Position numbers and translations under genes: made by a program
In this document: one piece after another, positions 6,343 through 58,189 of the stretch
Position numbering within the stretch: position 1 is the first letter of the stretch
Layout: the number at the start of each line of letters is the position of its first letter
NCBI GenBank assembly: GCA_951406725.2
Contig: OX597831.1
Coordinates: 68,076,001-68,140,000 of the forward strand
Direction of reading: 5' to 3'
DNA length: 64,000 bases
Origin: Octopus vulgaris
Lineage: Eukaryota
Notes under the pieces: model-generated
Database searches by the model: none
What the model was told of the DNA's origin: nothing
The model's input: only the letters and a program-made list of their open reading frames with translations

Positions 6343-6725
6343 GTCTTTTACTCTTTCTTTTACTTGTTTCAGTCATTTGATTGCGGCCATGCTGGAGCAC
6401 CACCTTTAGTCAAGCAAATCGACCCCGGAACTTATTCGTTGTAAGCCCAGTACTTATTCTATTGGTCTCTTTTGCCGAACCACTAAGTTACGGGGACGTA
6501 AACACACCAGCATCGGTTGTCATGCGATGTTAGGGAGACACACACACACACATGTACATATATACGACGGGCTTCTTTCAGTTTCCGTCTACCAAATCCA
6601 CTCACAAGGCTTTGGTCGGCCCGAGGCTATAGTAGAAGACACTTGCCCAAGGTACCACGCAGTGGGGCTGAACCCGGAACCATGTGGTTGGTAAGCAAGC
6701 TACTTACCACACAGCCACTCCTGCT
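6343..6725 (-). mobile_element. tRNA-derived SINE family A
   Basis: Reverse complement of the 5027 and 56736 copies. Confidence 0.85.
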
Positions 6726-12662: not shown

Positions 12663-12885
12663 ACTCTTTACTCTTTTACTCTTTTACTTGTTTCAGTCAT
12701 TTCACTGTGGCCATGCTGGAGCACCGCCTTTAGTCGAACAAATCGACCCCATGACTTATTTTTTGTAAGCCTAGTGCTTATTCAACCGGTCTCTTTTGCC
12801 AAACCGCTAAGTTACGGGGACGTAAACACACCAGCATCGGTTGTCAAGCGATGTTGGGGGGGGGGGGACAAACACAGACACACAA

Positions 12886-12930
<45 letters not shown>

Positions 12931-13093
12931 CGACAGGCTTCTTTCAGTTTCCATCTACTAAATCCACTCACAAGGCTTTGGTCAGCCTGAAGCTATAGTA
13001 GAAGACACTTGCCCAAGGTGCCACGCAGTGGGACTGAACCTGGAACCATGAGGTTCGTAAGCAAGCTACTTACCACACAGCCACTCCTACGCC
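12663..13093 (-). mobile_element. tRNA-derived SINE family A
   Basis: Full-length reverse-complement copy. Confidence 0.85.
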
Positions 13094-13861: not shown

Positions 13862-14884
13862 AATGGTAATCACTAAATTTGATGAACTGCAAGTATATGT
13901 GTGCATGTGTGTGTGTGTGTGTATGTGCACATATGTATGTATTTATACATGCATGCATACAAGTATGTGAGTGCATGTATGCATATCATTCTTTGCCTCA
14001 AGGGCCAATCAAATCAATTGTTGTTTGTTTGTCCATATTGAACTTCAATCTATTGTATCTTCAGACCACCATTACTAGCATTTCTGACAATTTTAATCCT
14101 TTGCATTACTCTATAAATTTTATTATTCATGAAATATCAATCTGCAACATTTTAGTCGTCGTTTGACTGCTTATATTAGAAACTTTTTATGTCACAATTT
14201 TAAATGTTTCTTCTAGTTCTTTGTTTGAATTTTATGTATTATATTTATTTGTCCATACATAAAAAAATAATATTTGTTTATTCTCTAAAGTTAAAGTGTA
14301 TAATTGAAAGAAATGCCAAAGCAAAGATAAACATTAAATTCCTTATAAATTTCTTCTCAGAAATGGTGATCACCTAAAAAGATAAAAGCTTCACAGAAAA
14401 TATAAGCTCAATGAGGCATTGATAGATATATGTGTGTATGTGTACACACACACACACATGTGTGTGTGTGTGTGCCTATGGATTTTGTGTGTGTATGCTT
14501 GTTTGTGTGACAGTGATCTATTCCACTTTCTGTGTACAATTCTTAGACTGGAGGGATAAATAGGTGAGATTGTTGTTAGCATTTAATTGAAATGGTTGGT
14601 GTTGAATGTGTGAAGAGGAAAATGGAAGTTGGTAAGAATTCTGCAGTGAAGGATTGAAGATGAATGATTAAACATGATCATAGCATTTTAGTTTGAGTTA
14701 TGATGGACAATATCCAGTTAGAATCTGCAGATATGGAGAAGCAGATGCATTGAATTTGTTTCAGATAGCAGTTGAATTCTTGATTGAAATCACAGACGGA
14801 GAACGCAGTTTGATCTTTTCTGCCTGTGCTTGTCTCATATGCGGTTTTTCCTTGAATGTGTTTTTACATACTCTCTCTCTTTCT

Positions 14885-15279
14885 CTTTACTCTTTTACTT
14901 GTTTCAGTCATTTTGACTGCGGCCATGCTTGAGCACCGCCTTTAGTCGAGCAAATCGGCCCCGGGACTTATTCTTTGTAAGCCTAGTACTTATTCTATCG
15001 ATCTCTTTTGATGAACCGCTATGTGACGGGGACATAAACACACCAGCATCGGTTGTCAAGCAATGCTAGGGGGACAGACACACAAACACACACACACACA
15101 CACACATACATATATACGACAGGCTTCTTTCAGTTTCCGTCTACCAAATCCACTCACAAGGCTTTGGTCGGCCTGAGGCTAGAGTAGAAGACACTTGCCC
15201 AAGGTGCCACACAGTGGGACTGAACCCGGAACCATGTGGTTGGTAAGGAAGCTACTTACCACACAGCCACTCCTGTGCC
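14885..15279 (-). mobile_element. tRNA-derived SINE family A
   Basis: Full-length reverse-complement copy. Confidence 0.85.
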
Positions 15280-17080
15280 TACTTGTGATCATTCAAGGAA
15301 TGTGAAACAAAATGCTAAAAGTTATGATAAAGCAAAAATGCCTATCATGTCATAAAATAATGTCATAATAGATTACAGTATATGCTCTGACAACCACAGA
15401 GTATAGCAAATATATATTATTTGTATCGATGACGATAGTATTACAGCCTATTGAGATATGACACCAATATATAAGATTGTGGTATCTCCTTGAGATTTTT
15501 GAAAATCTTTCATTCTGTTATTTGTTTGAAATGAGGAATGTTGTGCAGAATAAGTATTGTTTGTCAAATTTAAGAGCTGTCCTAGAACTACTATTGCTCT
15601 TTGGAGTCTGAAATTATTATTGCATTTGGCAGCAATGAAGACAAAGTGATGAAGAGTGGAAGCTTGGAAGCTAAAGAAGAGGAATGTAAGGCTAAAGCAA
15701 GCAGCGATTCATGCAGATTTGTTCTCATGAGCAATAATGTTAGAGAAAATGTAAATTTAATACAATCTTGGGTATGTTTCAAAGTTCCAGTTTTAGAAAA
15801 GGTGAAATCTTAAGAAAGTGATGTATAATTAAATACATAAAAATAAAAACAAATATAAAATAATTACTGCACACAGCTTTGTCACGCTGGTCATTCTTTT
15901 TATGTCCTTATGTAATGTCAGTCATATATCATTGTGTCTTCTTTAACATAAAGGTGATTTATGATTCATAAACTAAGGATAATACTGGAAAGTGAATATC
16001 TAAATATTTAATGGCTTAGATTTATTTGTTACCTTCCAATGTCAAACTGGAAAATTGATCACTTGGGATGAAAGTTTTAGCTGTTATCTGCCATGTGCAT
16101 GCAAACTTTGATTGCGTGTGAATAACATTTATGAAATAAAGTTTGCAAAGTTAGAAAGAATAAGTTAATGTGACTATAGCGGACGGGTACATATGGGAGA
16201 GTAACAGACCAAAGACATTACCTTGTCTCATCTTGTCTCTTAACATTCTTAATTTAAATCCACTTTGACTCTCTCATCTCTGAAACTTATTTTATAAGTA
16301 CCAATAAGTACAGGCAGTTAATAGTCTCAAATAACAAAATTAGAGACTAGCAATTTATATTGACATTTATGCTACATTGTGTATTACAAGATGGGTAACA
16401 CTTAATGGCTATGTTTCACCTTACTCAGAGCACAAACTGCAGAATTACAAATTCCACTGCTGGGAATCTGTTAGGCCTTTCATTAAATGGTAGAGCCGAG
16501 TTGAAGCCCTCTTGTGGATTGGGAAAAGCAATGGGAAACCATTTCCCTTAAATAACAACACAAGTATCTTTTAAGACTCCTAATAGGTTTATTAGCCAAA
16601 ACACAAGCCTTATACTTGGCCTATACAAACAGATTACTTATCCTGGCTTGAATAGTAAAAAAAAATCAATAATATTAGAGATTATATTTTCTTCAGGGAG
16701 AAATCAATATTACTATAAATTATATTTTATGACCATAAACAATATTATTAATATTAATAAGAATAAGTTAAAAAAGGCTTGGTTAACCTTTTCCTTACAG
16801 CATGTTTTGTATGATGTTAGTCATAAATTGGACCACATCATGAAAATAATAGTTTAACAGACATCATGCTAAACACCGAGTATATCATATATTGCACAAG
16901 TGAATCATAAAAATATTTCTCAAGAAAATTCGTGTAAATGCTATTTGACAATAAAATATGAATATGAAATTTTTGAGAATTTGACAGAGAAAATGTTATA
17001 TTTATAGAATTGTGACATTACGTATGCTCTATATCTAATCAGAAAGGATTGAATGGACCCTAAATGCCAAGGTTTACCCA

Positions 17081-17333
17081 CTCTTTACTCTTTTACTATT
17101 TTATTTGTTTCAGTCATTTGACTGTGGCCATGCTGGAGCACCGCCTTTAGTCAAGCAAATCGACCCTGGGACTTATTCTTTGTAAGCCCAGTACTTATTC
17201 TATCGGTCTCTTTTGCCGGACCGCTAAGTTACAGGGATGTAAACACACCAGCATCGGTTGTCAAGCAATGTTGGGGGGACAAACACAAACATACACACAC
17301 ACACATACATACATACATACATACATACATACA

Positions 17334-17368
<35 letters not shown>

Positions 17369-17532
17369 TGATGGGCCTCTTCCAGTTTCCGTCTACCAAA
17401 TCCACTCACAAGGTTTTGGTTGGCCCGAGGCTATAGAAGAAGACACTTGCCCAAGGTGCTACGCAGTGGGACTGAATCCGGAACCATGTGGTTGGTAAGG
17501 AAGCTACTCACCACACAGCCACTCCTGCACCT
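17081..17532 (-). mobile_element. tRNA-derived SINE family A with expanded internal (CATA)n
   Basis: Full-length reverse-complement copy. Confidence 0.85.
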
Positions 17533-27593: not shown

Positions 27594-28062
27594 TACTAGC
27601 AGTATTGCCCGGCTCGTGCGCCCGTGCATTCTATGCACGCGTGAATTAAGCTAAACTTGGATGAAGTTCAATCAAAATTCAGTTATTTTGGTTTTAAAAT
27701 CAAGCATTTAATGCCCTCTATTTTTGCGATTATGTGTTCCATTTCCTCAATAGGAAGTACGTAGAAGCGTTTCATAAATATTTGCTGATCAAATAATTGC
27801 ATTGTTGAATTATTCTTTTAGATCAGTATTTCTCAACGGGGATTTCAGGGGAGAGTTTCAGGGTGTCGCTGGCAATGTATCGTGATGATCAAAAATCCGG
27901 CCTGCTAAAATTTGGTTAAAGTGATTCAAACTGCAAACTCAACGCAAAATGGTCACATTTAATTCAAATCGTTAAAAATATTATGAAAACAATTGGTATG
28001 TGTTCACAAAGTCCAAACGATTAATACGAAAAAGCCCTCCACGCTACATCCCGAAAATTCAT

Positions 28063-28104
28063 TTCTTTGCCGAATTTCAAATTCTTTATAACCCACTAGG
28101 GGCG
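28063..28104 (-). repeat. 42-bp LINE junction repeat, copy 1
   Basis: ttctttgccgaatttcaaattctttataacccactaggggcg; 1 mismatch to copies 2 and 3. Confidence 0.95.
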
Positions 28105-29319
28105 ACATAGAAAAGAACATGACAATCACGAATGATGAGACATTTAAGATGCTTTGTGGGGTCAACTAAAAATTGGACTGAACAATAAAATCGAATGAAA
28201 TTACAATTACAATTACAAAGACACTTTTACAAATTGACAGAATGCAGTGGGGCGGGTCCGCGGACCCCACGCTCCCCGCCACGAACGTCAAATCAACGAC
28301 TGCTGAACGTCAATTCAACGACGACCAGCCTACCTTCCGGATCTGCAAAAATCAACTTTTTCCCAGAAACCCGGTTCTTTTTCACCAGGACCAACACCCC
28401 ACCTCCGCTGACCGACGGGTTCGGAGAGATAATTCTCTCGTAACCATCGAACAGCGGGAGCAGATCTCTTGGCCCCTTTAACCGGGTTTCTGTGGCAACA
28501 ACAACATCTAAATCCCGTGACCTGATGTCATTTAGGAAGCGCCCTTGCTTCCAGCTCGCCATCAGGCCACGTACATTTACGCACCCTACACAAATACGAG
28601 ACATTTTACTTACCTTTATGTCGGTGTCCTTGTTGGCCGGGGGGTGAAGTCCGCATTAATCAGTGACTCGTCCACTTCGAGTCGCGGACCCCTTATGTCC
28701 CCTGCAAACTGTGCATTTAACATATTAAAATTCATTACATCCAATTTGTGTATTTCTACGTTTTTATGTAGATTTCTGTAGGTTTTTATTTTCTCAGCGC
28801 TAGGTATGTTTCCCATTGCGCTTCTAAGTCTGTCATTGTCCTTGTTTATTGCAACATATACAATTTGGAATTCTGTAACTCTTTTTTGTGGGCTTTGTGG
28901 GGGTGATGGGGAGGAGGAGTTTTTCCTTTTGTGGAGTACCGTGTTTGGGTGGGGTGGGTTTCCCCTCCTGGGTGTTACTCTATTTTGTACTATGATTGGG
29001 TATATTTAGGTCCGTATTTTTTCTTTTTTTCATTTTTCTGGGTATCACGAAATCGTCATCCCCCTCTTGTTTTTTTCCTTCTTCTGTTTCAGTCGTTTTC
29101 TTCCTCCTCTCCTCTTCTTCAGCTTTTTTCCTTGCTTCTTCTTCTTCTTTCTTGCGGGTGGGGCATTCTGCTCGGATGTGGCCCTTTTCTCCACACCCGT
29201 AGCATCTGGGCTTACGCCCTTCGACCACCACCCGCAAGTTTATTTCGTCGTCGAAATTAATGCACTCAGGCACCTCCTCTAACGTTTCCGGCACCGCTTG
29301 CACTATTATTTGTAAAGCT

Positions 29320-29921
29320 TGTAGTCACCCTATACAACAGCGCGCGCGCGCAACGCCCTCTCGCGAATACACGAAGTCCGAAAGAGGGAATTTTGCTGAC
29401 GTGGCCTTAGCTGACGTGGCCTTGCTGACGTGGCCTTAGCAAGGGAGCGTGAGCCTTAACAAAGAGGCAAGGGAGCGTGAGCCTTAACAAAGAGACAAGG
29501 GAGCGTAAAGGTTGACCATTAGCGTCCGACAGACAGCGGCAGGCATTTCACCAAAGCAGACGTTTAATTCGCTCTCTCTCCGGTTTTGATAGCAGCAGTC
29601 TTTTGGCCGAAGACTTTTAACCTGAATTGTTGCAGACATCATCTTCTTCCTCCGGACGCCATTTTGGACCCGCTCTGTTTTTGGCGGCTGAACATTGTAA
29701 ATAGTACAATCGATTAACTTTCAGCCTTGCGCGCCCAGAACCTAGGACATCAGATATACCACTGAATTCTCACCGGTATAAAACAATAAAGTATATCTAT
29801 TTTTTACGTCTGCGTTTTGTGTTTCTTTGACTGGTAGAGTCTGGATATAAAAGCAACGGAAAGTGATTGCACCAACTTGCACCCCAAAAGTGCAAGCGGA
29901 GATATTCACATATTCGTTACA
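29320..29921 (+). repeat. 5' LTR
   Basis: tgtagtcacc...ttcgttaca; internal tandem repeats gctgacgtggcctt x3 and caagggagcgt x3; AATAAA. Confidence 0.95.
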
Positions 29922-29922
29922 G

Positions 29923-29932
29923 TGGTGACCCC
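29923..29932 (+). promoter_or_regulatory. Primer-binding site complementary to the tRNA-Trp 3' end
   Basis: TGGTGACCCC 1 nt after the LTR. Confidence 0.8.
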
Positions 29933-30357
29933 AAAGTTCCAGAGAACACTCAACAAAAAAAGAAACAATCCAGTTTTTCTGCCAAGTCTGAAACACGACC
30001 AACCTGTTTTCCAGTCCCTTTCAACAGTTTGTTTCTTCATCTGCACTCACGCACGGAAGAGAAAAAAAAAAAAAGAGAAGAAATTTTTTTTTCTCGATTA
30101 AAACGCGACGAAGGTTGGTAAAAAACAAAAAAAAGAAAAGAAGTTTTTTTTTCTATTCTCTGTGCACACAGTACAAACAAAAAAAAAACATTTTTTTTTT
30201 GTAAATTGCACATTCAAAATTTATTGGTTCAATTGTTGCTCTTTCTTCCTTTCTTTTTTCCCTTTGTTTTTCCTTGTTTCGTCTGTTCAGCGTTGGTTCG
30301 TTGTCAGTTTTCTTTTTTCCATTTGACAGAGTCATCTAGTGAATAAAAGGCTACAAA

Positions 30358-31086
30358 ATGTTTATGGGTTCGTTACCTACTTTTACAGGTGATGTCACAC
30401 TGTGGTTTTCACAGTTAGAGACACAATTTCGTGCACAAAGTATTACTCCCGAGCAGCAGTTGGAAATCCTTTATGGTTGCATGCCGCCGCAACTGGCATC
30501 TTCAGCAAGGGACCTTATTACAGACCCTAGTCCAGGCGCTACTTATGCGTCTGTTAGATTAGAGGTTGAAAAAAGAAATACACGAAGCGAGGAAAGTCGT
30601 TTCAACGAGTTAATGGCAGATGAGCAACTAGGGGACAGAACTCCGTCAGAATTTTTACGAAGACTGAGGGAGTTAAGTGGTAATGCATCAGATGCCCCCC
30701 TCCTTCGGAAGATTTTTTTCTCGAGGTTGCCCGCCTATATACAGACCGTTTTGACAACCGGCTTAGAGACAAATACAGTGGACCAAATAGCAACGATGGC
30801 TGATAAGATGGTTGAATTTGCCGTTCAACCATCGTCACGGTCTGTTTGTGCCTGTTCACAGACCTCTTCGGCCTCAATTGAGGGGCTTTTTAAACTAATA
30901 GAAACCCTCACTAAAAGGATGGACGCGATGTGTCGCGATGGTAAGCGATCTTCAAAATCGCGAAGTCGCAGTCGTTCATCCTCGAGATCAAAACAGTCTA
31001 AGTCTGGACTGTGTTGGTACCACTCCAAGTATGGAGAGAATGCACATAGGTGCACACAGCCATGCACTTATAAGTCTTTAAACTAG
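30358..31086 (+). CDS. gag: Gag with CHCC zinc knuckle
   Basis: 242 aa; LPTF..D..LWF.QLE..F, LGDRTPSEFLRRL, CWYHSKYGENAHRCTQPC (C-X2-H-X9-C-X3-C). Confidence 0.9.
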   Translation: MFMGSLPTFTGDVTLWFSQLETQFRAQSITPEQQLEILYGCMPPQLASSARDLITDPSPGATYASVRLEVEKRNTRSEESRFNELMADEQLGDRTPSEFLRRLRELSGNASDAPLLRKIFFSRLPAYIQTVLTTGLETNTVDQIATMADKMVEFAVQPSSRSVCACSQTSSASIEGLFKLIETLTKRMDAMCRDGKRSSKSRSRSRSSSRSKQSKSGLCWYHSKYGENAHRCTQPCTYKSLN

Positions 31087-31118
31087 ATTCGGAGAATTTG
31101 AGCACGTCAACTTCCTCC
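31077..31118 (+). promoter_or_regulatory. Predicted -1 ribosomal frameshift signal
   Basis: T TTA AAC right before the gag TAG; 7-nt spacer; hairpin GGAG...CTCC (31091-31118); the -1 frame is open into pol. Confidence 0.75.
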
Positions 31119-34100
31119 ACAACATTTTCTGGTTATCGTGCATTCTTTGTTAAAGATCTAGTGTCGAAGAAAAACTTCATGATAGACACTGGTTCTTGTT
31201 GCAGTATTTGGCCTCTGCGTTGCACAACTGACAGGCCAAAGCGATCTAACGTCATCTTGCACGCTATTGACTCGTCACCAATAGCCACATTCGGTCAGAT
31301 GTCGTTGCGCCTTGATATTGGTCTTCGACGAGACTTTCAATGGGTTTTTGTCATTGCCGACATTCCGCATCCTATTTTAGGTGCGGATTTTCTGGATAAA
31401 TTTGATTTGTTGGTAGATGTCAGACGTCGGAAGTTGGTCGATAGTTCGACTACACTCTCCACGCCGACCGGAGAATCTACCAATTTAGCTCTTAGCCCGA
31501 CATTTTTTGTCGGTACATCTGGAGATGTTTTTCACTCTCTTTTAGCTTCTTTTCCAGAGCTATATGATGTTACCTTTAGGGTGGCTAAGCCATTGCATTC
31601 AACACGACACTTTATAACAACAACTGGACCTCCTGTTTTTTCACGTCCAAGGCGTCTTGCACCTGATCGACTTAAAACTGCTAGGGCTGAGTTTGAGCAC
31701 ATGCTCCAGCTCGGTCTGATACGCCCCTCCACCAGTCCATGGGCATCTCCCCTTCATTTAGTAAGAAAAGGGGATACAGATTTTCGCCCGGTGGGAGATT
31801 ATCGGCGTCTAAATTCGGTGACGATTCCAGACAAATATCCCATAAGGATTTTAAACGATTTTTCGGCAAATTTACATAGCTGTACTATTTTTTCTAAGGT
31901 TGACCTGATACGTGCCTACCATCAAATACCGGTCAACTCAGACGATATTCCTAAAACAGCAATTACTACTCCTTTTGGCTGTTTCGAATTTTTATTTATG
32001 AGTTTTGGTTTGAGGAATGCCACTAGTACTTTCCAACGGTTTATAGATGAAGTTGTTCGCGGACTGGATTTTGTGTTCGCGTATGTCGATGACATTCTAA
32101 TCGCAAGTGATACGCATGAAAATCATCTCCTGCACTTGTCTCAGCTTTTTCAGCGTCTTCGCGACTATGGTGTTCGCATTAATCCAGACAAGTGTGTTTT
32201 TGGGCAACCATCTCTTAATTTTCTCGGTCATTATATTGACTCGAGAGGAATCAAACCACTCTCATCCAAAGTCGATGCTATTCAACGCATCGCACCACCT
32301 TCTTCTTTGCGTCAACTTCGCCATTTTTTAGGCATAGTAAATGTCTATAGACGTTTCATAGATCGGTGTGCGGACAAGTTGTTACCTTTAACACAAATGC
32401 TAAAGGGCAATTCCAAGAAGGACGCCCGTCTGACTCTTTCGGCTGAAACACTGTCTGCCTTTGAGTTGGTTAAAAAGAAACTAGCTTCAGTCCCTATTTT
32501 GGCACATCCGGCTCCTAATGCTCCACTTACTTTATCTGTGGACGCATCAGAGTCTGCAATTGGCGCTGTTTTGCAGCACACCGTAGAGGGTGAAGTTAAA
32601 CCTTTAGCTTTCTTTTCTTGTCAGCTAAAGCCAGCTGAACGCAGATATAGTACCTTTGATCGAGAGTTACTAGCGATCTATGTCAGTTCGGCATTTTCAA
32701 CACCAGCTCGAGGGACGAGAGTTTGTGATTTATACTGATCACAAGCCCCTTACTTTTGCATTGTCTTCTAAAACGGATAAACTCTCTCCTCGTGCTTTCC
32801 GTCACCTGGACTATATTTCTCAATTTACAAGTGACATTAGGCATGTGCCAGGCAGTGAGAACGTCCCTGCAGATGCTCTCTCTAGACTCCCTGTCAATTC
32901 CATTTCCTCTCCTGCAGCAATTGATTTAACTGCTATTTCGCAGGATCAACCACCTTTAGAGGAGTTGGATTTAACTTCGCCTAAGTTTATTAACTGTAAG
33001 TTTGACTACCTTCCGCTCCCTACAGCGGAAGGCTCTATTCTTTGTGACGTTTCTACCAGTTCACCTAGACCATTAGTACCTGAGAAACATCAACGTTCTG
33101 TGTTTGATGCTCTTCATTCACTGTCACATCCAGGTATCTCTGCCACAGTAAAGCTTGTTACTGCTCGTTTCTTCTGGCCCAATATGCGACGATCAATTAC
33201 CTCTTGGGCACGCTCTTGTTTGAGGTGCCAGAGTGCTAAAGTCCATAGACACGTTCGTGCTCCACTTGGACAATTTTCCTCTCCTGAAGCCCGTTTTCGC
33301 CATATCCACCTTGATTTGGTTGGACCATGGCCTGTGAGTCGCGGGTTCTCATACATTTTTCACGCTGGTCGGAAGCTATTCCTATAGCAGACATTTCAGC
33401 TGAAACTGTTGCGAGGGCTTTCGTATCTAATTGGATTTCGAGGTATGGTGTACCGTACAGTTTAACCACAGATCGTGGTCGACAATTCGAGTCTGCATTG
33501 TTTCGTGAGTTATCACGAATCCTGGGGATGCATCACATACGCACCACAAGTTACCACCCCGCTTCTAATGGGATGGTGGAGCGTTTCCATAGGCAACTTA
33601 AGGCCGCTTTGCGTGTCTCGCCGAATCCACAGACATGGACTGAATTTCTACCGATCGTCCTGCTTGGATGTCGGACTGCGATTAAAGCAGACCTTGGTTT
33701 TTCGTCTGCCGAGCTCTTGTATGGTACCACACTGGCATTGCCTGGTACGATGTTGGTGCCAGACAAGTCACAGTCTCTTAATTTAGAGTCTTATGTTGCT
33801 CGATTACGCAGATATTTTTCTGCCCTTCCTCCTATGGACCCTCGACACCAAAATCCTCCTTCTAGTGTGCCATCAGACCTTAATTCTTGGACGCATGTTT
33901 TTATTCGTGATGATTCTGTCAAAGGACCTCTTGTTTCTCCTTATAAAGGACCTTTTCGTGTGATTTCTCGCACGCCGAAGGTATTCAAACTTGAAATTAA
34001 CGGTCGTTCGGAGACCGTCTCCGTAGATCGTCTTAAAAGGGCATATTTTGAGGTGTCCACATCTTTTAATGACCCCACTGCTACAACCATCGTTGAACCT

Positions 34101-34268
34101 TCACATGCACCTTTGACAACACCACTATTTACACATGCACCATTATCAACACCAACATCGACAACACCACCTTCGTCGTCGCAGCCTGCCTCGAACAGAC
34201 CTTATGTTACGAGGTCAGGCAGAACTGTTCACTGGCCGAAAAAACTTTCCAAAACTATTCATATTTGA
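31080..34268 (+). pseudogene. pol: Pol (protease-RT-RNase H-integrase) with two disabling frameshifts
   Basis: IDTGS; DYRRLN, FGLRNA, YVDD; VDASE, ELLAI, TDHKPL; HH-CC, DLVGP, TDRG, NGMVERFH, PYKGPF; frames break near 32683 and 33360. Confidence 0.92.
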
Positions 34269-34475
34269 CATTTTCAATTGACTTCCCAGTGACAGTTCAG
34301 TACTCATTGAACTTTGCTCATTTTGAGTATTTTTTCTCTTTTTACCTTTAAGGTGAATTTTTTTTTTTTTTTTTTTGCTGTTTAATGTATTATATTGTGT
34401 GCTATTTTTGGTTATCTGGTGTCCACCTTGAGTTTTATGGTCACTACAAGGAATTGTTGTTCGTGCTTAGGCACT

Positions 34476-34484
34476 GGAGGGGAG
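34476..34484 (+). promoter_or_regulatory. Polypurine tract
   Basis: ggaggggag 3 nt before the 3' LTR. Confidence 0.75.
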
Positions 34485-34487
34485 CTT

Positions 34488-35092
34488 TGTAGTCACCCTA
34501 TACAACAGCGCGCGTGCGCAACGCCCTCTCGCGAATACACGAAGTCCGAAAGAGGGAATTTTGCTGACGTGGCCTTAGCTGACGTGGCCTTGCTGACGTG
34601 GCCTTAGCAAGGGAGCGTGAAGTCTTAACAAAGAGGCAAGGGAGCGTGAGCTTTAACAAAGAGGCAAGGGAGCGTAAAGGTTGACCATTAGCGTCCGACA
34701 GACAGCGGCAGGCATTTCACCAAAGCAGACGTTTAATTCGCTCTCTCTCCGGTTTTGATAGCAGCAGTCCTTTGGCCGAAGACTTTTAACCTGAATTGTT
34801 GCAGTCAAATCTTCTTCTTCCTCAGGACGCCATTTTGGACCCGCTCTATTTTTGGCGGCTGAACATTGTAAATAGTACAATCGATTAACTTTCAGCCTTG
34901 CGCGCCCAGAACCTAGGACATCAGATATACCACTGAATTCTCACCGGTATAAAACAATAAAGTATATCTATTTTTTACGTCTGCGTTTTGTGTTTCTTTG
35001 ACTGGTAGAGTCTGGATATAAAAGCAACGGAAAGTGATTGCACCAACTTGCACCCCAAAAGTGCAAGCGGAGATATTCACATATTCGTTACA
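34488..35092 (+). repeat. 3' LTR
   Basis: Near-identical to 29320-29921. Confidence 0.95.
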
Positions 35093-35988
35093 AGCTTGTC
35101 CCTTCCAATTCTCCTTCTGGGTTCTGACAATGTTTATGATATTAATTTTTTCTTTCAGTCCCATAAATAGGGCTGGAATGAGGCTTTTTACCTCAATTTC
35201 CGGTAGTATATCGTCTATTTTAATTTTTATTGTTCTTCTCCCCATATACGAGGGGAGAAGAATTATGTCTGTAGTTTTTAAAGGGTTGATCAAGTGTTTC
35301 CTCGCCTGTTCCTCCTCTTTAAAGTAAACCATTATCGTTGCATATTTCTTACCCGATGTAACGAAATCAATGTCTGTCCATATTGGTTTGAGACACTTTT
35401 CGGCCTGCTCCTTTGTTATTTTTTCTATTTTTCTTTCCTTAATTACAAACGATTTAAAAATTACCGTTTTCTTTATGGTCCTGGTTTTTATTTCTTGTGG
35501 GAGGGTGGCTTTTATGTTGTTCCCCTCCCGTTTGTACCTGTCCTTGTATTTGTCATATTCAATGTCTTTAGGTTTAATTTTTTCGGTTTTTCTGCCTGCT
35601 GCGGCTGCGCAGTTAACCGTTTTTTTTCACGTTTTCAACTGCTGGTACAGTTGTTTCCGAATTATCTGCTTTCAACATATTTTTTTCCTTTGTAGGTGAA
35701 CCTACAATATTTTCTTTTTTTGAAGGTGAACCTTCATTGACAAAATGTTCAACTGTTTTTTCCATTTTCACGCAAGTGGATTTTTTTTTTGTTAGATTGT
35801 GTCAAAACACACAATATGTTTCACAATGTTTCCCCTCCTTAAAGGAGGGGAATAACAAAGTTCTCTGGTTCACAAACCAGTCAAAAGTTTAATACAACGT
35901 TTTAACAACAAATTTTCAACAAGGTAAATCAAACACAATTATTAACAATTTTAGCTTACTTTCAAAACACAACTGACGCCTTCAAAAA

Positions 35989-36030
35989 TTCTTTGCCGAA
36001 TTTCAAATTCTTTATTACCCACTAGGGGCG
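35989..36030 (-). repeat. 42-bp LINE junction repeat, copy 2
   Basis: ttctttgccgaatttcaaattctttattacccactaggggcg, between the two LINE copies. Confidence 0.95.
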
Positions 36031-36243
36031 ACATAGAAAAGAACATGACAATCACGAATGATGATACAATAAGATGCTTTGTGGGATCAATTTAAAAATT
36101 TGACTGAACAATAAAATCGAATGATATTACAATTACAATTACAAAGACACATTTACAAATTGACAGAATGCAGTGGGGCGGGTCCGCGGACCCCACGCTC
36201 CCCGCCACGACACTTAGACTTGTGTTTACTTTTTTTTCCAGGT

Positions 36244-39200
36244 CTATCTCGCATTTGTGAGGGACCTTTTATTCGCCACATTCTTCCACCTTTCATCGAA
36301 CACTTTCTTACTCAGGCTCCTCCTCTCCAGTTCTATTTGTCTTTTCAGGTGGAATTTGAAGTATTCCACAAGACTAGAACCGGAGATGAAGTCGCCTGTT
36401 AGCATCCCTTTCACCCGCGTCTTCCATACTGCCTGTTTCGCAATTGAAACCACAGAGAGAAAACAATTCTTACCTTCTTTCGTTAAGAAATCAGGTGGGC
36501 TGATTTTCACAATGGATTCGGCTGATAGCTGTACTCTTCCTCCACTTGACATCAGTTGTTCGGCATAAACCCACATGTCTGTCACCTCCGGGCACTGCAC
36601 GATCGCGTGCGAGACGGTTTCCCCGTCTCGCCCACTTCTCGCGCAGGTCGGGCTGACTGGGGCACCATGCCTTGCGAGTTTATCTCGAACAGGTAAGGCT
36701 CCTCGGTAACACTGCCAAACCAAAGACTTCTGGAAATTATCCAGTGCCTTCGGCCCGAATGTACGTTGGAACAGACTGGCCAGCTGATTATCGTCGAAAC
36801 CTAGGGTTTCCCCTAGCGTATCATCGTTACCGGCCTCTACAAAACCTCTATAAAACACAGCGGTAGAACCACTGCCGCAGGCATTGCCCGAGCGACGGAA
36901 TAGTCGGAGTGCCGCAAGGCACTCCGTGTACCATGTACCCAACTTCGATCTACGATTATACCAGTCTTCCCGTCCACCGAAACTGGTGAACCTGGGAAAC
37001 ATCTGCTTCGCCAGCGGAGACCACACCCGTTCACCATCCAGATGGAGCCACAGGTGCCTTAGCCTTAGCGCATTTCTGCTCATCATTAGCCACGGCATCC
37101 CTAGTCCACCCTGTAACGGTTTTTGACAACAAATAGAGCGTTTCACAAGTGGTTTCGAGCCCTTCCACAAAAAGTGAAAGAGCTGTCTCTCCAACTTGTT
37201 CAACCACGAATCCGGGCAAGGCACGACGGCAAGGCGGTAGGTGATCACCGATGCGATAAACACATTGGCTACCTCCGCCCTACCTTTCAGGGATAACCAC
37301 CGCCAAGACCAGGTCTTGACTACTGCGGTCACCCTGCTCGATACCTCGCTCCAGTTCTTCTCTATTTGGAGGCCTGGTCCAAACCAGACCCCGAGCAACT
37401 TAATCGGGCCCTCCGTCCAACGTCCCACGACGCTGTCTGGAGGCATCGACTTGCCTCTCCAGGTGCCGAGTTGCAAGCCGACTGACTTTTCACGATTAAC
37501 CTTTGCTCCTGTCACCGTCTCGTAAACCTCTATGGCCTTGCCTACTTTACGTAGGAGGTCCATTTCGGTCACGATGATAGTGATGTCATCCGCGTACGCC
37601 GAAACCGACATTCCACGACCTGGCTGCCTCGGGATGCCACTCAGTTTTCGCAGCAGCGGCTCGAGAGCCACTACATACAAAAGCGGGGAGAGCGGACATC
37701 CCTGACGGACCGAGCGTTTGACCTTGAACGGCTTAGAAATAAAGCCGTTCACCCGAACTACCGAGTCGACGTTGTCATACAATTGTATGATCCACCTGAG
37801 GAAGCAAAGACCCAGGTCGAACTGAGCCAGGACGGACACCAGGTAACGATGGTCGACCCTATCGAAAGCTTTTGACTGGTCTAAATGGACCACTGCTCCT
37901 CCCTTGCCGGGATCATTATCCATTCCCTCTATCGTGTATCTAATTAGATGGAGATTATCCTGAATGGTTCTGCCCAGTACGGCGCACGTTTGCACTTTCC
38001 CGATCAGTCCATTCGCGACACGCGCCAATCTGTTCGATAACACTTTGGCCAAAATCTTCAACTCTGCGTTAAGCAGAGTGATGGGCCTGAAATTATCAAT
38101 GACGTCCCCCTTGCTCTGGTCCTTCCTGACTAGTGTCACCACTCCCCGGCGCACAGATCTGGGTATGAACCCATTCTGCTGCCAGTTCGCGTAGACGTCC
38201 GCCAGTAAGTCCCCGAACAAGTCCGGCATACTTTTATAAAGCTCGTAGGGCAGACCATCCAGTCCCGGCGCCTTACCCGCACCGCAGTCTGCCATGGCCT
38301 CCATTACCTCCTCAGGCGTGATCGGCTTCTCACTACACTCCGCATCCTGCCCCGAGAGGCGCGGCAGTCCGTCAAGAAGGTCCGTTAGGTCCCTCCTCTC
38401 ATCCGGCCCGCCGCCACCCCCAAAGAGCTGGGCGAAGTGGTCCTGAAAAGCTTGACACATCTCCTCGGGCTCGTCTGTCAACTTACCTTGTTGGTTCGTC
38501 AGAGATCGAATTGTGGCATCGTTACCACGTTGGGCTTCCACCACTCGGGCCCATCTCGCGGCATTAATTCCTTCGCTCCCCATTGTACGTTGTCTAGCTC
38601 TGACAATGCAACCCATGTGTTTGGCTTCGAGGTGCTGGTTTAAAACCAGTCTCTTGGCCTTCACCTGAGCCGCGTTGCCAGTTCGCATTGCTTCCTCTAG
38701 GTCCTTAACTAGAGTAGTTTCTTTTCTAGCCTCTCTAGCTACGAGATCTATACTATATCTAATAGACTCATATCTTATGGCTCGCTTGAGGGCATACCAC
38801 CATTTGTTATTGATAATGGAGCCGGTCATGGCCCTCTGGATCATTAACCTAATCCTGTCACTGTACTCCTTAATCGCCAAAAGGGACGTATTAAGTTTCT
38901 AGTAACCAGGACCTCTATTTATCTTATCTACGTCTAGCTTACAGGTGACCATCTTGTGGTCATTTTGTAGCTGACTATGTGGAGCTGTGGACTCTTAACT
39001 AGGTTTCTATCTACCTTCCTAATTAAAATCCTGTCTATGTATGACCTTGACGATCCGTCGCTGTTTGTCCATGTCCACAATGGAGCGTCCGGATGTTCCA
39101 GTCTATATGGATCTACCAGCTCAAAACGTCTTAGTAGATCCAGGAAGCAAGCATCTCTTTCCTGTCTGTTTGCGAGCCTACACAGTCTACCCGCACATTG

Positions 39201-39637
39201 CAGATTGTGTTGTAGTCTCCTAACATTACTAAAGGGCACGATGTACTGAGAAACTTCTCCAGGTTCCGAAAATACTCACTATTCCCCTTATTATTGGGGG
39301 CGTAAACCGCAACCAGTCTGATTGTCTTACGACTGCTGAACGTCAAATCAACGACGACCAGCCTACCTTCTGGATCTGCAAAAATCAACTTTTTCCCAGA
39401 AACCCGGTTCTTTTTCACCAGGACCAACACCCCACTTCCGCCGACCGACGGGTTCGGAGAGATAATTCTCTCGTAACCGTCGAACAGCGGGAGCAGATCT
39501 CTTGGCCCTTTTAACCGGGTTTCTGTGGCAACAACAACATCTAAATCCCGTGACCTGATGTCATTTAGGAAGCGCCGTTGCTTCCAGCTCGCCATCAGGC
39601 CACGCACATTTACGCATCCTACACAAATACGAAACAT
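36244..39637 (-). pseudogene. LINE ORF2 (APE endonuclease + RT + C-terminal zinc finger), disrupted
   Basis: NVRGL, VYAPN, GDYN, SYIDR; KAPGLDG, FRPITLLN, LDQSKAFDRV, RQGCPLSP, YADD; ETVSHAIVQC. Frameshifts near 39160 and 38965, stop in GY*KLN near 38900. Confidence 0.9.
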
Positions 39638-41306
39638 TTACTTACCTTTATGTCGGTGTCCCTGTTGGTCGGGGGTGAAGTCCGCTTTAATAAGTGACTC
39701 GTGTACATCGAGCCGCGGACCCCTTATGTCCCCTGAATACTGCGCATTTAAAATATTAAAGTTTAGCAAATCCATTTTGTATATTTCTACATTTTTAAAA
39801 AATTTTCTGTGTGTTTGTATTTTTTCAGCGGTTGGGATGTTTCCCATCCCGCTGCTTAAACTGTCGTTGTCTTTGTTGATGGCTGCATAAACTACTTGGA
39901 ACTCCGTGATTTTCTTTTGGGGGCTTTGTGGGGGTGATGGGGAGAAGGGGGAGGAGGAGTTTGGGGAGTATGTAGGGGAGGAGCACGGGGAGGTCATTTG
40001 GAGGGGAGGGTAATGTATGGTACTGTGGGGTGGGGGGTGATTCGTGTTGGTCTGGGGGGGTCTTATCTTTTTTTTCCTTTTGTGGAGTACCGTGTTTGGG
40101 TGGGGTGGGTTTCCCCTCCTGGGTGTTACTCTTTTTTGTGCTATTGTTGGGTATATTTAGGTCCGTATTTTTCCTTTTTTTCATTTTTCTGGGTATCACG
40201 AAATCGTCATCCCCCTCTTGTTTTTTTCCTTTTTCTGTTTCAGTCGTTTTCTTCCTCCTCTCCTCTTCTTCAGCTTTTTTCCTTGCTTCTTCTTCTTTCT
40301 TGCGGGTGGAGCATTCTGCTCGGATGTGGCCCTTTTCTTCACACCCGTAGCATCTGGGCTTACGCCCTTCGACCACCACCCGCAAGTTTATTTCGTCGTC
40401 GAAATTAATGCACTCAGGCACCTCCTCTAACGTTTCCGGCGCCGCTTGCACTATTATCTGTAAAGCTTGTCCCTTCCAATTCTCCTTCTGGGTTCTGACG
40501 ATGTTTATGATATTAATTTTTTCTTTCAGTCCCATAAATAGGGCTGGAATGAGGCTTTCTACCTCAATTTCTGGTAGTATGTCATCTATTTTAATTTTTA
40601 TTGTTCTTCTCCCCATATACGAGGGGAGAAGAATTATATCTGTAGTTTTTAAAGGGTTGATCGAGTGTTTCCTCGCCTGTTCCTCCTCTTTAAAGTAGAC
40701 CATTATCGTTGCATATTTCTTACCCCATGTTACGAAGTCAATATCCGTCCATATTGGTTTGAGACATTTTTCGGCCTGCTCTTTTGTTATTTTTTCTATT
40801 TTCTTTTCCTTAATGATAAACGATTTAAAAATTACTATTTTCTTCATGGTCCTGGTTTTTATTTCTTGTGGGAGGGTGGCTTTTATGTTCTTCCCCTCCC
40901 TTTTGTACCTGTCCTTGTATTTGTCGTAATCAATGTCTTCCGGTTTAATTTCTTCAGTTTTTCTGCCGGCTGCGGCAGCAAAGTTGTACGTTTTTTTCTC
41001 GGTTTCAACCGCTGGTGAACTTGGTTTGGATACACTTTTCGACAAAGTGTTTTCCTTTGTAGGCGAACCTACAATATTTTTCTCGTTTTCTACTGCTGGT
41101 GAACTTGGTTTGGAATCAATAGTGTTTTTCTTTGTAGGAGAACCTACGATATTTTCTTTAGAAGGTGAACCTTCATTGGCAACATCTTCGAATGTTTTAT
41201 CTATTTTCAACAAATGAATGTATTTTTTTTTTGTTTGTTTAATTGCGCTACAACGCACAATATATTTCACACAATATTTCCCCTCCTTAAAGGAGGGGAA
41301 TAACAA
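39638..41306 (-). pseudogene. LINE ORF1 (gag-like, CCHC knuckle), probably frameshifted near 40000
   Basis: CYGCEEKGHIRAEC; N-terminal NIVGSPTK/SKPSSPAVE repeats; the C-terminus conserved between copies (GDIRGPRL) lies in ORF 39638-39997; start codon uncertain. Confidence 0.8.
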
Positions 41307-41438
41307 AGCTTTCCTGGTTCAAAAACCAGTTAAAGTTCAATATAACAATTTAACAAACAATTTTTAAACAAACAATTTCAACACAATTTTAACAATATTT
41401 TGGCTCACGTGAAAAAACACAACCGACTCCTTCAAAAA

Positions 41439-41480
41439 TTCTTTGCCGAATTTCAAATTCTTTATTACCCACTAGGGGCG
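41439..41480 (-). repeat. 42-bp LINE junction repeat, copy 3
   Basis: Identical to 35989-36030. Confidence 0.95.
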
Positions 41481-41849
41481 TGTGGTGAACACAGTTCACG
41501 TCAAACAGCTGACTGAGTACAGTTCACTATTCAATGCATGGGATAAGGCCTAAACAAGCACATTATCGATTTTTGCACTTGCGAGATGAATTTCGAAACA
41601 GAAATAGCGCAGTTCAATTTTCATTCGCCTAAACTTTAAGTGACACATTTTTGGTGGTTCTACGATTTGTTGGCTAGGAGGAGATGTGCCGGGAAGTTAA
41701 ACACACAGACACACACACAGATACACACACAGACACACACACACATACACAAGTTGAGTTTTATATATATAAATTTAATATATGACAATTATTCTGTAAA
41801 TTTAATATGTGACAATTATTCTGAAATTTAATATGTTACAATTATTCAG

Positions 41850-41903: not shown

Positions 41904-42200
41904 TCTCTTCACTTATAAGGCCATCAAAAAATGCTATGAAAATGACCGCTAATTAAGGGGAGGGAGTAAAGAAAGGTAAGGAGTAAAAATGTTCATAGTA
42001 ATCACGTAAGTGCGCATGTCCATACATACACATGCGCGCCCGAACACCCACGTACATGCGCCCATATGTATATACTCATCCACCTTCACTTGTAAAACAC
42101 ATATGCTCACTCACACATTCGCCAAAAACTATATACATACCCGCATACACGCTCGCACACACGCGCACAAAAATGGTTCATACATACGCCTGTATACGCA

Positions 42201-42765
42201 CATGCACAAGAAAAAACAGGGCTAAAGGCAAAATACAAAAAATGATGTGTAATATAGTGTAAAAAATAAGCAATAAGAGTAAAAACACGTCTATATACGC
42301 ACATACCCGCACACATCCACACGCGCGCACAAAAGATTCCATATACACGTCTATATACGCACAGGAAAAATGCAGGGTGGAAGGTAAAATACAGAAAAAT
42401 ATGTGTAAAAAATATTTGAGCAATAAAACTATAAAATAATATCTGTAAATATGTAAAAATATATATAAAAAATAGTTTTTTAAAAAATATATTTTTATAG
42501 TTTTATTGCTCATATATTTTTTTACACATAATTTTTCTGTATTCTACCTTCCACCCTGCATTTTTCCTGTGCGTATATAGACGTAAACGTCTATATACGC
42601 ACAGGAAAAATGCAGGGTGGAATTTTTTGTGCGCGCGTGTGGATGTGTGCGTGTGTGTTGGTATGTGCGTATATAGACGTGTTTTACTCTTATTGCTTAT
42701 TTTTTACACCTTTTTTACACATTTTTCTGTATTTTGCCTTTAGCCCTGTTTTTTTCTTGTGCATG
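42201..42765. repeat. Large imperfect palindrome with a nested perfect hairpin
   Basis: 42201-42440 is the reverse complement of 42490-42765; nested 36-bp arms 42549-42584 and 42587-42622. Confidence 0.9.
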
Positions 42766-42856
42766 TTTTTCATCCTGCAGTGTCCAACAAAAACCACCCT
42801 CCTTACCAAGGAATCTTACCAGTTTTTTGACTGAAGGCCCAACCATGAGAAAGGTT

Positions 42857-56336: not shown

Positions 56337-56735
56337 CAACCTTCTTCCATATATAATTAACAAATGATGTTTAAAATAACATCATCTTAAATGTCTATGA
56401 ATTAAATCTACTGATGAAGTTAATTCCTCTTCAAAACTACTAATATTGACACAGACAACATTGAGATCAACATTCTGTGTATTCCTACTTTGATAACATG
56501 CATTTTGTCTAATTGGTTTAATGGATGTTTTGTTAATGTGTTGATATTATATTCAATTGAATTTCAAGACTAGATTATACACTTACTTTTTCTAATTTAA
56601 TTTAATCACCTCCAGTTAATGATTATTTTTGTTAAAATAACATTACAATTAATTCTCCGAGATGTTGACACTTGTCATTTGTAAAGTTTCCAGTGTTTCA
56701 GTTGAAAAAAGAAGAAAAACTGTTATACTGTTATA

Positions 56736-56897
56736 GGCGCAGGAGTGGCTGTGTGGTAAGTAGCTTGCTAACCAGCCACATGGTTCCGGGTTCAGTCCCA
56801 CTGCGTGGCATCTTGGGCAAGTGTCTTCTGCTATAGCCTTGGGCCGACCAAAGCCTTGTGAGTGGATTTGGTAGACGGAAACTGAAAGAAGCCTGTC

Positions 56898-56941
<44 letters not shown>

Positions 56942-57150
56942 ATGTGTGTGTTTGTGTGTCTGTGTTTGTCCCCCTAGCATTGCTTGACAACCGATGCTGG
57001 TGTGTTTACATCCCCGTCACTTAGCGGTTCAGCAAAAGAGACTGATAGAATAAGTACTGGGCTTACAAAGAATAAGTCCTGGGGTCGATTTGCTCGATTA
57101 AAGGTGGTGCTCCAGCATGGCCACAGTCAAATGACTGAAACAAGTGAAAA
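56736..57150 (+). mobile_element. tRNA-derived SINE family A
   Basis: Full-length copy. Confidence 0.85.
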
Positions 57151-58189
57151 AAAAAACATACACTACAAGCTTCACCTGCAGTTATGGAAATCTTGGTGGT
57201 CTAAATGAATCCCAAACCCAAATATTTGCTGATATAAGTGCTGCCAAACAATAATAATAATTCTTAACCAATTTTGTGGGAATGATAATAATTATTTTTA
57301 ATTTAAGAGCAAAGCTCAGTTTTAAAGAGAGGGTTTTAGTCAATACCTTTGATCCAAATATCTAACCATTATTTTTTTGAGCCCAGGGAGATCAATGGTA
57401 AAGTTGACCCTAGTAGGATTTGAACTCAGATGTTAGAAATCCAGAGTAACTGCCACAAAGCATTCTATCCAATGCTTTAATTATGCTGCCAATTCACTGT
57501 TTAAATCAGTTGTTCTCAACCATTTTCTTACCTATGGTACCCCTTTGATTTCTATTTTACTCTACTTGATCTCCATAGCCATTCAATGTATATAAAAAAT
57601 TCTTACTGTATTTTTATAATTAAATATTATTAGGAATTGCACTAAAAAAAATTTAATTATTTTGTGTATTGTAGAAGTATGAGCAATTTATTGCACATAT
57701 ATATTAACAACAAAATCTTGTATGGACACCAATGATCTCCATTGAAAACCATTGACGTAAATTACAATGACAAAAATAATATGCTTGAAAATTCGTTTGA
57801 AACATTGCAATACGTAAGCAAAATAGAGAGGTTTAATAAAACCTTATGGCAATGTGAGTGAGGAATAAAACAGAATAAGATATGGTGTTGCTTACAAATA
57901 ACAAATATGTCAAAATATTTAAAATTTCATTTTTAATATTTCAATAATTGGATTATCAAAAAATCCATTTTCAGTTAGTGTGAGAAAAGTTCTCTTACTC
58001 AGTTCATAGCCACCTCCATCTGTCTTCTGACAGAAAATTGCCTATTATACTGCTTTATAATTCAGCAGTTTTTATGTTAGTCCTTTCTATTATAAGTCCA
58101 ACCTGAAATTTATGTTACAAAGTATAGCAACATATAGGCACTTTTGTCTCAAAGTCAGTTTAAAGAAAACAAAAGTCCTCCATCAACCT

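What the first reader, a model, noticed from the sequence alone, without database searches (positions are those of the whole stretch)
28063..41480. Tandem L1/Tx1 LINEs bounded by a 42-bp 'mini-LTR' that fuses the poly(A) signal and the promoter start
Seen: the layout is R-LINE1-R-LINE2-R, with R at 28063, 35989 and 41439. There is no poly(A) tail and no other target duplication. On the element strand R reads CGCCCCTAGTGGGT-AATAAA-GAATTTGAA-ATTCGGCAAAGAA (copy 1 has TATAAA) and ends 22 nt after the poly(A) signal; copies 2 and 3 are followed by U/GU-rich sequence. If the A of ATTCGG is +1 (41451, 36001), a DPE-like GGTTG/AGTTG falls at exactly +28 in both copies. Established: several invertebrate LINEs use Inr+DPE internal promoters; HeT-A and Dictyostelium TRE5-A have terminally redundant designs; Xenopus Tx1L inserts site-specifically into a DNA transposon with a long TSD. 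Inference: the RNA would carry a 13-nt terminal redundancy (U3-R logic), so RT could jump from one RNA's 5' end to another's 3' end. That would explain two diverged copies in tandem plus a 29-nt stub of a third 3' end. The alternative is an unusually long TSD from repeated site-specific insertion into a Helitron, which would also be notable.
Basis: partly seen in the sequence, partly recalled or inferred. Interest (0 to 1): 0.82.

Follow-up and report, generated by a model that had tools for sequence, protein, structure and literature searches.

The report
LINEs stacked at a Helitron promoter
The 42-base 'mini-LTR' is not an end of the jumping gene but 16 bases of its landing site inside a common Helitron transposon plus its own last 26 bases, repeated because related LINEs landed at this one spot several times; the spot lies 29 bases behind a TATA box, so the LINE likely borrows the Helitron's promoter.

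Summary
The three 42-nt repeats exist, but R is a chimera. Its first 16 nt are a site in a non-autonomous Helitron (483 exact empty sites) and are duplicated on insertion. Its last 26 nt are the 3' end of an L1/Tx1-type LINE (419 exact copies genome-wide; only 20 junctions with that site). Single insertions elsewhere show a plain 16-nt target duplication. So the window holds repeated site-specific insertions: an old, internally deleted LINE with a Gypsy inside, a full-length LINE, and a 26-nt stub that removed about 70 nt of Helitron. The mini-LTR and internal Inr/DPE reading fails, and the same layout is published for crocodilian Tx1-Mar/SINEU-3. The nick lies 29 nt behind a conserved TATA box, and a variant of the 16-mer follows element 5' ends even at a locus with no Helitron. 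The RNA therefore probably starts in the duplicated target and carries it as a leader, as in R2. No RNA ends were mapped. ORF1-only partner elements share the termini and the site. The scan found these trains and the TATA spacing before, on other DNA of this genome.

The parts
27596..28062 (-). 3' arm of a non-autonomous Helitron (about 800 bp family, 'Helitron A'); ends CTAG before T
   Evidence: 1243 first-look candidates for its other arm
28063..28078 (-). Target 16-mer, copy 1 (original Helitron-side copy of the duplication)
   Evidence: same 16-mer once in empty Helitrons (loose ends at 28078)
28079..29319 (-). LINE copy 1, 3' part: 206-nt 3' end, 11-nt filler, then endonuclease/ORF1 region (about 3.1 kb of ORF2 deleted at 28284/28296)
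29320..35092 (+). Ty3/Gypsy LTR retrotransposon inserted in ORF1 of LINE copy 1; LTRs about 29320-29921 and 34487-35092; AGCT duplicated; pol broken into several frames
35093..35988 (-). LINE copy 1, 5' part (ORF1 start and 5' UTR)
35989..36004 (-). Target 16-mer, copy 2
36005..41438 (-). LINE copy 2, full length (5.4 kb): ORF1 with CCHC knuckle; ORF2 (APE endonuclease, RT, zf-RVT) lying in three frame pieces (39637-39131, 39275-38934, 38898-36244); ends AATAAA+GAATTT, no poly(A)
   Evidence: an unbroken 1130-aa ORF2 occurs in the C19 copy
41439..41454 (-). Target 16-mer, copy 3 (predicted 5' leader of LINE copy 2 RNA)
41455..41480 (-). 26-nt 3' stub of a third LINE (conserved tail shared with ORF1-only partners), joined to the Helitron through a CG microhomology
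41481..41770 (-). 5' arm of the Helitron, resuming about 70 nt past the nick; the deleted stretch held the TATA box

Best explanation
An L1/Tx1-type LINE has inserted repeatedly at one base of a high-copy non-autonomous Helitron, each time duplicating 16 nt of target, so R is that duplication plus the LINE's 26-nt 3' end; the site lies 29 nt behind a Helitron TATA box, which likely drives the LINE's RNA from inside the duplicated target. Shown: R's two origins, the 16-nt duplication around single insertions, tandem stacks at other loci, the TATA spacing, the missing poly(A). Inferred (about 0.9): target-primed reverse transcription from a nick after the 16-mer by the LINE's APE endonuclease; a full-length insertion rebuilds the site on its 5' side, so the next element lands between it and the TATA box, with the oldest copy farthest away. 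Inferred (about 0.6): the RNA begins at or near the nick and carries the 16-mer as a leader, whose cDNA anneals to the target and gives the uniform 5' junction, as postulated for R2. Truncated cDNAs lack the leader and join by microhomology with loss of Helitron DNA, which is what the stub did; it removed the TATA box and probably silenced the stack. Reverse transcription starts at a fixed point 6-7 nt after AATAAA set by the element's conserved tail, not by pairing of redundant ends.
For: Empty sites: 25 of 29 sampled Helitron copies carry the 16-mer once (21 exact, 4 with one mismatch, 4 truncated), none followed by a LINE end; 483 exact empty 31-mers. LINE tail: 419 exact 21-mers against 20 target-plus-tail junctions. 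Single insertions at C1, C2, C5 and C15 have the 16-mer on both sides with both Helitron arms. Of the 9 closest LINE 5' ends, 8 meet the 16-mer at the same base. Of 13 loci tallied, the outermost element is full length in 6 and the Helitron resumes at nt 1 in all 6; it is truncated in 4 with resumption at nt 71, 104, 232 and 245; in 3 no right arm was found. TATAAAA starts 29 nt upstream of the nick in 33 of 37 empty-site hits and is the only TATAWAW on that strand of one 800-nt copy; two other target families have TATA-like boxes at -30 and -29. RNA-borne target sequence: a T-to-G variant of the 16-mer occurs in 9 empty Helitrons and at 4 element 5' junctions; at C17 the Helitron-side copy has T and both 5' copies have G; at C7 two G copies sit in an array inside a SINE-like repeat with no other Helitron A sequence in 10 kb. 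A sister LINE at C31 has a 66-nt 5' extension inside a new 19-nt duplication. LINE copy 1 is more diverged at its 3' end from the closest copies (about 95%) than copy 2 (98.5-99%). Precedent: PMC4494074, PMC3774820.
Against: No RNA start or end was mapped; only contigs were available. The G-variant evidence comes from the ORF1-only partner, not from the LINE itself; the three 16-mers in the window are identical to the common form and so uninformative. C7 is equally explained by one read-through RNA spanning several units of an unseen array. TATA spacing is not general: Helitron B has it at -37 to -41, and 6 of the other 10 junctions looked at show none within 60 nt; the prior chance of a TATAWAW in a 9-nt window is about 0.012, and the lead came from an earlier scan note. 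32 of 127 3' junctions follow an ORF1-only 5' end with no recognised target linker, and one LINE-LINE junction at C8 lacks the 16-mer, so not all stacking is plain sequential insertion. Tx1 versus L1 clade was not tested by a tree.
Confidence: 0.7

Rival explanations
1. One reading: R is a 42-nt element-encoded terminal repeat joining the poly(A) signal to an Inr+DPE start; RNAs with a 13-nt redundancy let RT jump from one to the next.
For: R is real; AATAAA followed 20-25 nt later by U/GU-rich sequence would suit polyadenylation at the end of the 16-mer; target sequence does travel with RNA in partner elements.
Against: 16 nt of R are Helitron DNA in 483 empty sites; only 7 exact copies of R's first 27 nt exist, all at Helitron-site junctions; 3' ends at other targets lack the 13 nt and begin at the same base; junctions without a duplication show neither read-through nor poly(T); the DPE match is at chance level.
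Confidence: 0.04
2. Ordinary site-specific insertion with a purely DNA-made 16-nt duplication and an internal LINE promoter; the TATA spacing is incidental, and target sequence reaches new loci only inside occasional read-through RNAs.
For: All window features fit; a fixed second-strand nick also gives uniform junctions; many targets lack a TATA at -30; identical unit-unit junctions recur on different contigs, as multimer RNAs would give.
Against: TATA at -29/-30 in three unrelated targets; T/G asymmetry at C17; repeated 16-69-nt pieces of Helitron B upstream sequence between units at C15, C1, C7, C8 and the 66-nt extension at C31 are too long or too often repeated for a 16-nt duplication.
Confidence: 0.2
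3. The stub (and perhaps the whole tandem) came in one event: RT copied LINE copy 2 from a read-through RNA of a stacked source locus, or jumped to a third RNA, and stopped after 26 nt.
For: R2 and R3 are identical; short 3' stubs recur elsewhere (25 nt at C8, about 68 nt at C19); junctions without duplication are common among partners.
Against: Copy 1 is clearly older than copy 2 and has its own deletion and Gypsy insertion, so copies 1 and 2 are separate events; a separate truncated third insertion predicts the same sequence, as at C12, C17 and C25. The two cannot be told apart in this window.
Confidence: 0.2
4. Assembly artefact or local segmental duplication.
For: No short-read contig spans the whole stretch.
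Against: Copies 1 and 2 differ by 3-21% and in structure; the same junction type occurs on C8, C17, C19 and C25 with different elements.
Confidence: 0.01

Closest known systems
Crocodilian Tx1-Mar and SINEU-3 (Kojima 2015, PMC4494074; abstract, passages, sections 3, 15, 17, 20 read)
   Same: Tx1 LINE and a non-autonomous partner target one site in a non-autonomous DNA transposon; 16-nt duplication; tandem insertions 'sandwiching a TSD' by sequential insertion; 5' extensions from the target and transcription from the flanking transposon proposed.
   Different: Target is a Helitron, not a Mariner; the partner encodes ORF1p; the site sits at fixed distance from a TATA box; mollusc-type host.
Xenopus Tx1L in Tx1D (PMC1950540 passages; PMC4494074 section 3)
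   Same: APE-endonuclease LINE specific for a site in a non-autonomous DNA transposon.
   Different: piggyBac-type target; stacking and promoter capture not seen in the passages read.
R2 elements with target-derived 5' leaders (Eickbush 2013, PMC3774820; abstract and outline read; PMC6795142 passages)
   Same: Uniform 5' junctions where the RNA carries upstream target sequence, variable microhomology junctions where it does not; no promoter of their own.
   Different: R2 has a restriction-like endonuclease, targets 28S rDNA and is cut out of a Pol I co-transcript by a ribozyme; here the leader would come from a Pol II start at the insertion site (inferred).
HAL1, HeT-A, Ag-Sponge: ORF1-only non-autonomous LINEs (PMC5786205, passages)
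   Same: The 1.7-kb partner at this site encodes only an ORF1-like protein (32% identical to the LINE's ORF1 over 243 aa) and shares the LINE's termini; head-to-tail arrays as in HeT-A.
   Different: Arrays are interstitial, inside Helitrons.

Membership tests
LTR / terminal-repeat retroelement (mini-LTR) | Repeat is element-encoded and present at both ends at unrelated loci | tested here: not met
   16 nt are target DNA; absent from 3' ends at other targets
LTR / terminal-repeat retroelement (mini-LTR) | Promoter and RNA 3' end inside the repeat | not testable with these tools
   no raw RNA reads offered; DPE at chance level
L1/Tx1 group of non-LTR retrotransposons | ORF2 with N-terminal APE endonuclease, RT and C-terminal zinc-binding domain, no RNase H or integrase | tested here: met
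   PF03372, PF00078, PF13966; best solved relative human L1 ORF2p E 5e-47 against R2 1e-23; L1 endonuclease best
L1/Tx1 group of non-LTR retrotransposons | Separate ORF1 with CCHC knuckle | tested here: met
   zf-CCHC E 5e-4, 20.4 bits, just under the 20.8 cut-off, in the C19 copy; motif visible in window ORF1
Tx1 clade | RT groups with named Tx1 elements rather than L1 in a tree | not testable with these tools
   no named Tx1 reference came back; 'Tx1' rests on architecture and site specificity
Tx1 clade | Sequence-specific insertion into a multicopy target with fixed duplication | tested here: met
Helitron (non-autonomous) | 5' TC, 3' CTRR, inserted between A and T, no target duplication | tested here: met
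   minus-strand TC...CTAG in A|T in most sampled copies; the window copy lacks the terminal TC
Helitron (non-autonomous) | GC-rich hairpin about 11 nt before the 3' end | tested here: inconclusive
   a 7-bp stem lies farther in; near-terminal pairing weak
Helitron (non-autonomous) | Autonomous RepHel partner with matching ends | not tested
   not searched
ORF1-only (HAL1-like) non-autonomous LINE, partner element | Only an ORF1 homolog, termini shared with an autonomous LINE | tested here: met
   about 30 nt shared at each end
Stem-loop LINE tail | Compensatory changes in a 3' hairpin | tested here: inconclusive
   86.8% of cells paired but 0 of 11 pairs with a change on both sides in 31 tails

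The most novel reading that the evidence does not exclude
An APE-type LINE lineage homes on Pol II start sites (about 30 nt behind TATA boxes) of other transposons. Its RNA starts in, and may be polyadenylated just past, the duplicated target, so the target itself supplies short redundant ends. These fix the junctions, rebuild the site for the next element and can carry a landing site to new loci (as at C7), which would give a route for stacking and target switching.
Probability: 0.3. Interest if true: 0.72.

Novelty: new variant of a known kind. Interest (0 to 1): 0.42.

Why it matters
As a 'mini-LTR' it does not hold, and stacked site-specific Tx1 insertions around a 16-nt duplication are published. 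What remains of interest is how an APE-type LINE picks its target and is transcribed. If it lands at a TATA-driven start site and takes the target as its leader, it is a Pol II counterpart of R2's strategy, with a Helitron as safe haven and promoter. That is directly testable with 5' end mapping and an endonuclease assay, and it bears on how Tx1 families change targets. The scan has already reported the wider system from other windows of this genome, so this window adds a second view and the variant-tracking evidence for an RNA-borne target, not a first discovery.

Tried and rejected
RNA evidence: no RNA holder listed on record; three DNA-like runs and one guessed RNA run are contigs and cannot show ends or strand; they only repeat the empty-site junctions at 28078 and 41482. 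Covariation in the 3' hairpin: none. Naming the clade through homolog names: only 'hypothetical protein' (nearest named: Argonauta hians, 63%). An apparent 11-nt 3' read-through at C1 was dropped because one search placed a Helitron B arm 5 kb away, so it reads as a target duplication. Shared SNPs in the Helitron arm next to 5' junctions, which would show a long leader: none seen by eye in 4 LINE loci. C3, C12 and C32 sister loci share flanks over kilobases and were not counted as independent. The C3:181 Mb repeats include flank and were treated as DNA-level duplications; the near-identical C2:158 Mb units may be too. In one search locus L011 was read on the wrong strand and L026 missed by the pattern; counts are taken. 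My notebook's early figure of a 64-nt deletion is corrected to about 70 nt. Literature searches found no paper on a Tx1/L1 family targeting a Helitron or TATA start sites (0 papers; 1 unrelated listing). Repbase and Kojima & Fujiwara 2004 were not available, and no supplements were read; those of PMC4494074 and PMC13282606 may bear on novelty.
Full report
Observation. The three 42-nt repeats are at the stated coordinates. The DNA between them is minus-strand LINE sequence, but the first 'LINE' is a 2.1-kb remnant: about 3.1 kb of ORF2 are deleted at 28284/28296, and a 5.8-kb Gypsy element with 97.9% identical LTRs and an AGCT duplication sits in its ORF1. The second LINE (36005-41438) is full length, with ORF2 in three frame pieces. 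Domains are APE endonuclease, RT and zf-RVT; the nearest solved relative is human L1 ORF2p. The host genome is 2.8 Gb and microsatellite-rich, and the nearest named protein is from Argonauta, so an octopus-type host is inferred.

What R is. The flanks belong to a high-copy 800-bp repeat with Helitron ends (TC...CTAG between A and T). Of 29 other copies sampled, 25 carry the first 16 nt of R once and continue into Helitron sequence; 4 are truncated there. The exact empty 31-mer occurs 483 times. The other 26 nt are the LINE's 3' end: a 21-mer from it occurs 419 times, while a wider pattern finds only 20 places where the Helitron site precedes such an end. The first 27 nt of R occur 7 times, all at such junctions. 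Single full-length insertions at C1, C2, C5 and C15 have the 16-mer on both sides and both Helitron arms. Sister families have 16-19-nt duplications at other targets. So R is a 16-nt target duplication plus the LINE tail. The element ends 6-7 nt after AATAAA; 0 of 127 distinct 3' junctions have a run of 9 or more T within 25 nt (the set is what my fetched loci held and includes a few SINE-linked tails).

Why tandem. A full-length insertion rebuilds the site on its 5' side. Stacks with the 16-mer between units occur at C8, C17, C19 and C25. In the window the copy farthest from the rebuilt site is the most decayed. Among 13 loci tallied, all 6 whose outermost element is full length resume the Helitron at nt 1; the 4 with a truncated outermost element and a right arm resume at nt 71 (window), 104, 232 and 245; 3 had no right arm in the DNA fetched. 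The window's stub is thus a 5'-truncated copy with target deletion. Whether it is a third insertion or the tail of a read-through or jump cannot be told here. Kojima 2015 (PMC4494074; abstract, passages and sections 3, 15, 17, 20) describes the same layout for Tx1-Mar/SINEU-3 in a Mariner element, with a 16-nt duplication sandwiched between sequential insertions.

Partners. The same site takes a 1.7-kb element that encodes only an ORF1 homolog (32% over 243 aa) and shares about 30 nt at each end with the LINE. It has 332 first-look candidates and forms arrays of more than ten units, often in a second Helitron where 11 of 30 sampled sites are occupied by LINE-type tails. ORF1-only non-autonomous LINEs are a known kind (PMC5786205, passages). 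The scan reported these trains before on other DNA (e1-8663012, e1-8663684, e1-8662463, e1-8672739, e1-9518204).

What survives of the promoter idea. Following e1-8671901, I measured TATA spacing: TATAAAA begins 29 nt upstream of the nick in 33 of 37 empty-site hits (some loci overlap), and two unrelated targets have TATA-like boxes at -30 and -29. Helitron B has one at -37 to -41, and 6 of 10 other junctions have none. Independent signs that target sequence rides in the RNA: a T-to-G variant of the 16-mer is in 9 empty Helitrons and at 4 partner 5' junctions. At C17 the Helitron-side copy is T and both 5' copies are G; at C7 two G copies lie in an array inserted in a SINE-like repeat with no other Helitron A DNA within 10 kb. 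Pieces of 16-69 nt of Helitron B upstream sequence recur between units, and a sister LINE at C31 has a 66-nt 5' extension inside a fresh 19-nt duplication. For R2, uniform 5' junctions go with target-derived leaders and variable ones with their absence (PMC3774820, abstract); 3' target pairing aids R2Ol (PMC6795142, passages). Against: this evidence is from partners and sister families, multimer read-through explains part of it, and no RNA end was observed. The window's own deletion removed the TATA box.

What does not survive. An internal DPE is at chance level. A 3' redundancy leaves no trace: junctions outside the Helitron and the 32 junctions with no recognised target linker start at the same tail position without read-through or poly(T). 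The conserved tail can fold into a hairpin that includes the AATAAA, but without covariation.

Comparison and novelty. It works like Tx1L or Tx1-Mar (PMC1950540 passages; PMC4640811 passages on target-specific clades and tandem Utopia insertions) and probably like R2 at the 5' junction. It is an L1/Tx1-group LINE by architecture; Tx1 clade membership was not tested by a tree. It is not an LTR-like element. An octopus repeat survey lists active L1-Tx1 families but mentions no targets in its main text (PMC13282606, passages). Nine searches found no report of Helitron or TATA targeting; Repbase and supplements were not seen. HeT-A's promoter design and TRE5-A are recalled, not checked. Verdict: new variant of a known kind, interest 0.42; the headline mini-LTR claim is wrong.

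Noticed in passing
window 29320-35092 (+): Young Ty3/Gypsy element (LTRs 97.9% identical, 4-nt duplication) nested in ORF1 of LINE copy 1; pol split over several frames.
   Followed up: partly
window 28284-28296: The internal deletion of LINE copy 1 carries an 11-nt filler that matches sequence about 10 nt beyond the junction, like a templated end-joining insert.
   Followed up: partly
window 36005-41438 versus L103, L105, L106, L107: LINE copies are mosaics: ORF2 97-100% identical among most copies while ORF1 and 5' UTR swap between 72% and 97%, suggesting frequent template switching or recombination between subfamilies.
   Followed up: partly
L229-L258 (Helitron B site): A second Helitron family is occupied at one base by LINE-type tails in 11 of 30 sampled copies; ORF1-only units there show a uniform 10-13-nt target deletion at the 5' junction instead of a duplication.
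   Followed up: partly
L212-L213 (C8) and L221-L223 (C14): Arrays of 10-13 ORF1-only units; the same junction types recur on different contigs and in periodic blocks.
   Followed up: partly
L100:9120-9620 (C25): A LINE copy in the Helitron holds two short pieces ending in another subfamily's 3' tail, inside the LINE near the ORF1/ORF2 boundary.
   Followed up: no
L058, L102, L146:480-560 (oriented): A SINE-associated repeat carries nearly the same conserved 3' tail; it may be another partner of this LINE group.
   Followed up: no
window 42200-42770: Large imperfect palindrome (about 570 nt) just beyond the Helitron.
   Followed up: no
window 6339-6727, 12663-13093, 14875-15279, 17080-17531, 56734-57156: Dispersed copies of a 270-450-nt SINE-like repeat with a (CA)n/(TA)n core.
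   Followed up: no
L148 (C17:619.5 kb): The TATA box of this occupied Helitron is mutated, and one junction holds 23 nt rather than 16 nt of target.
   Followed up: partly
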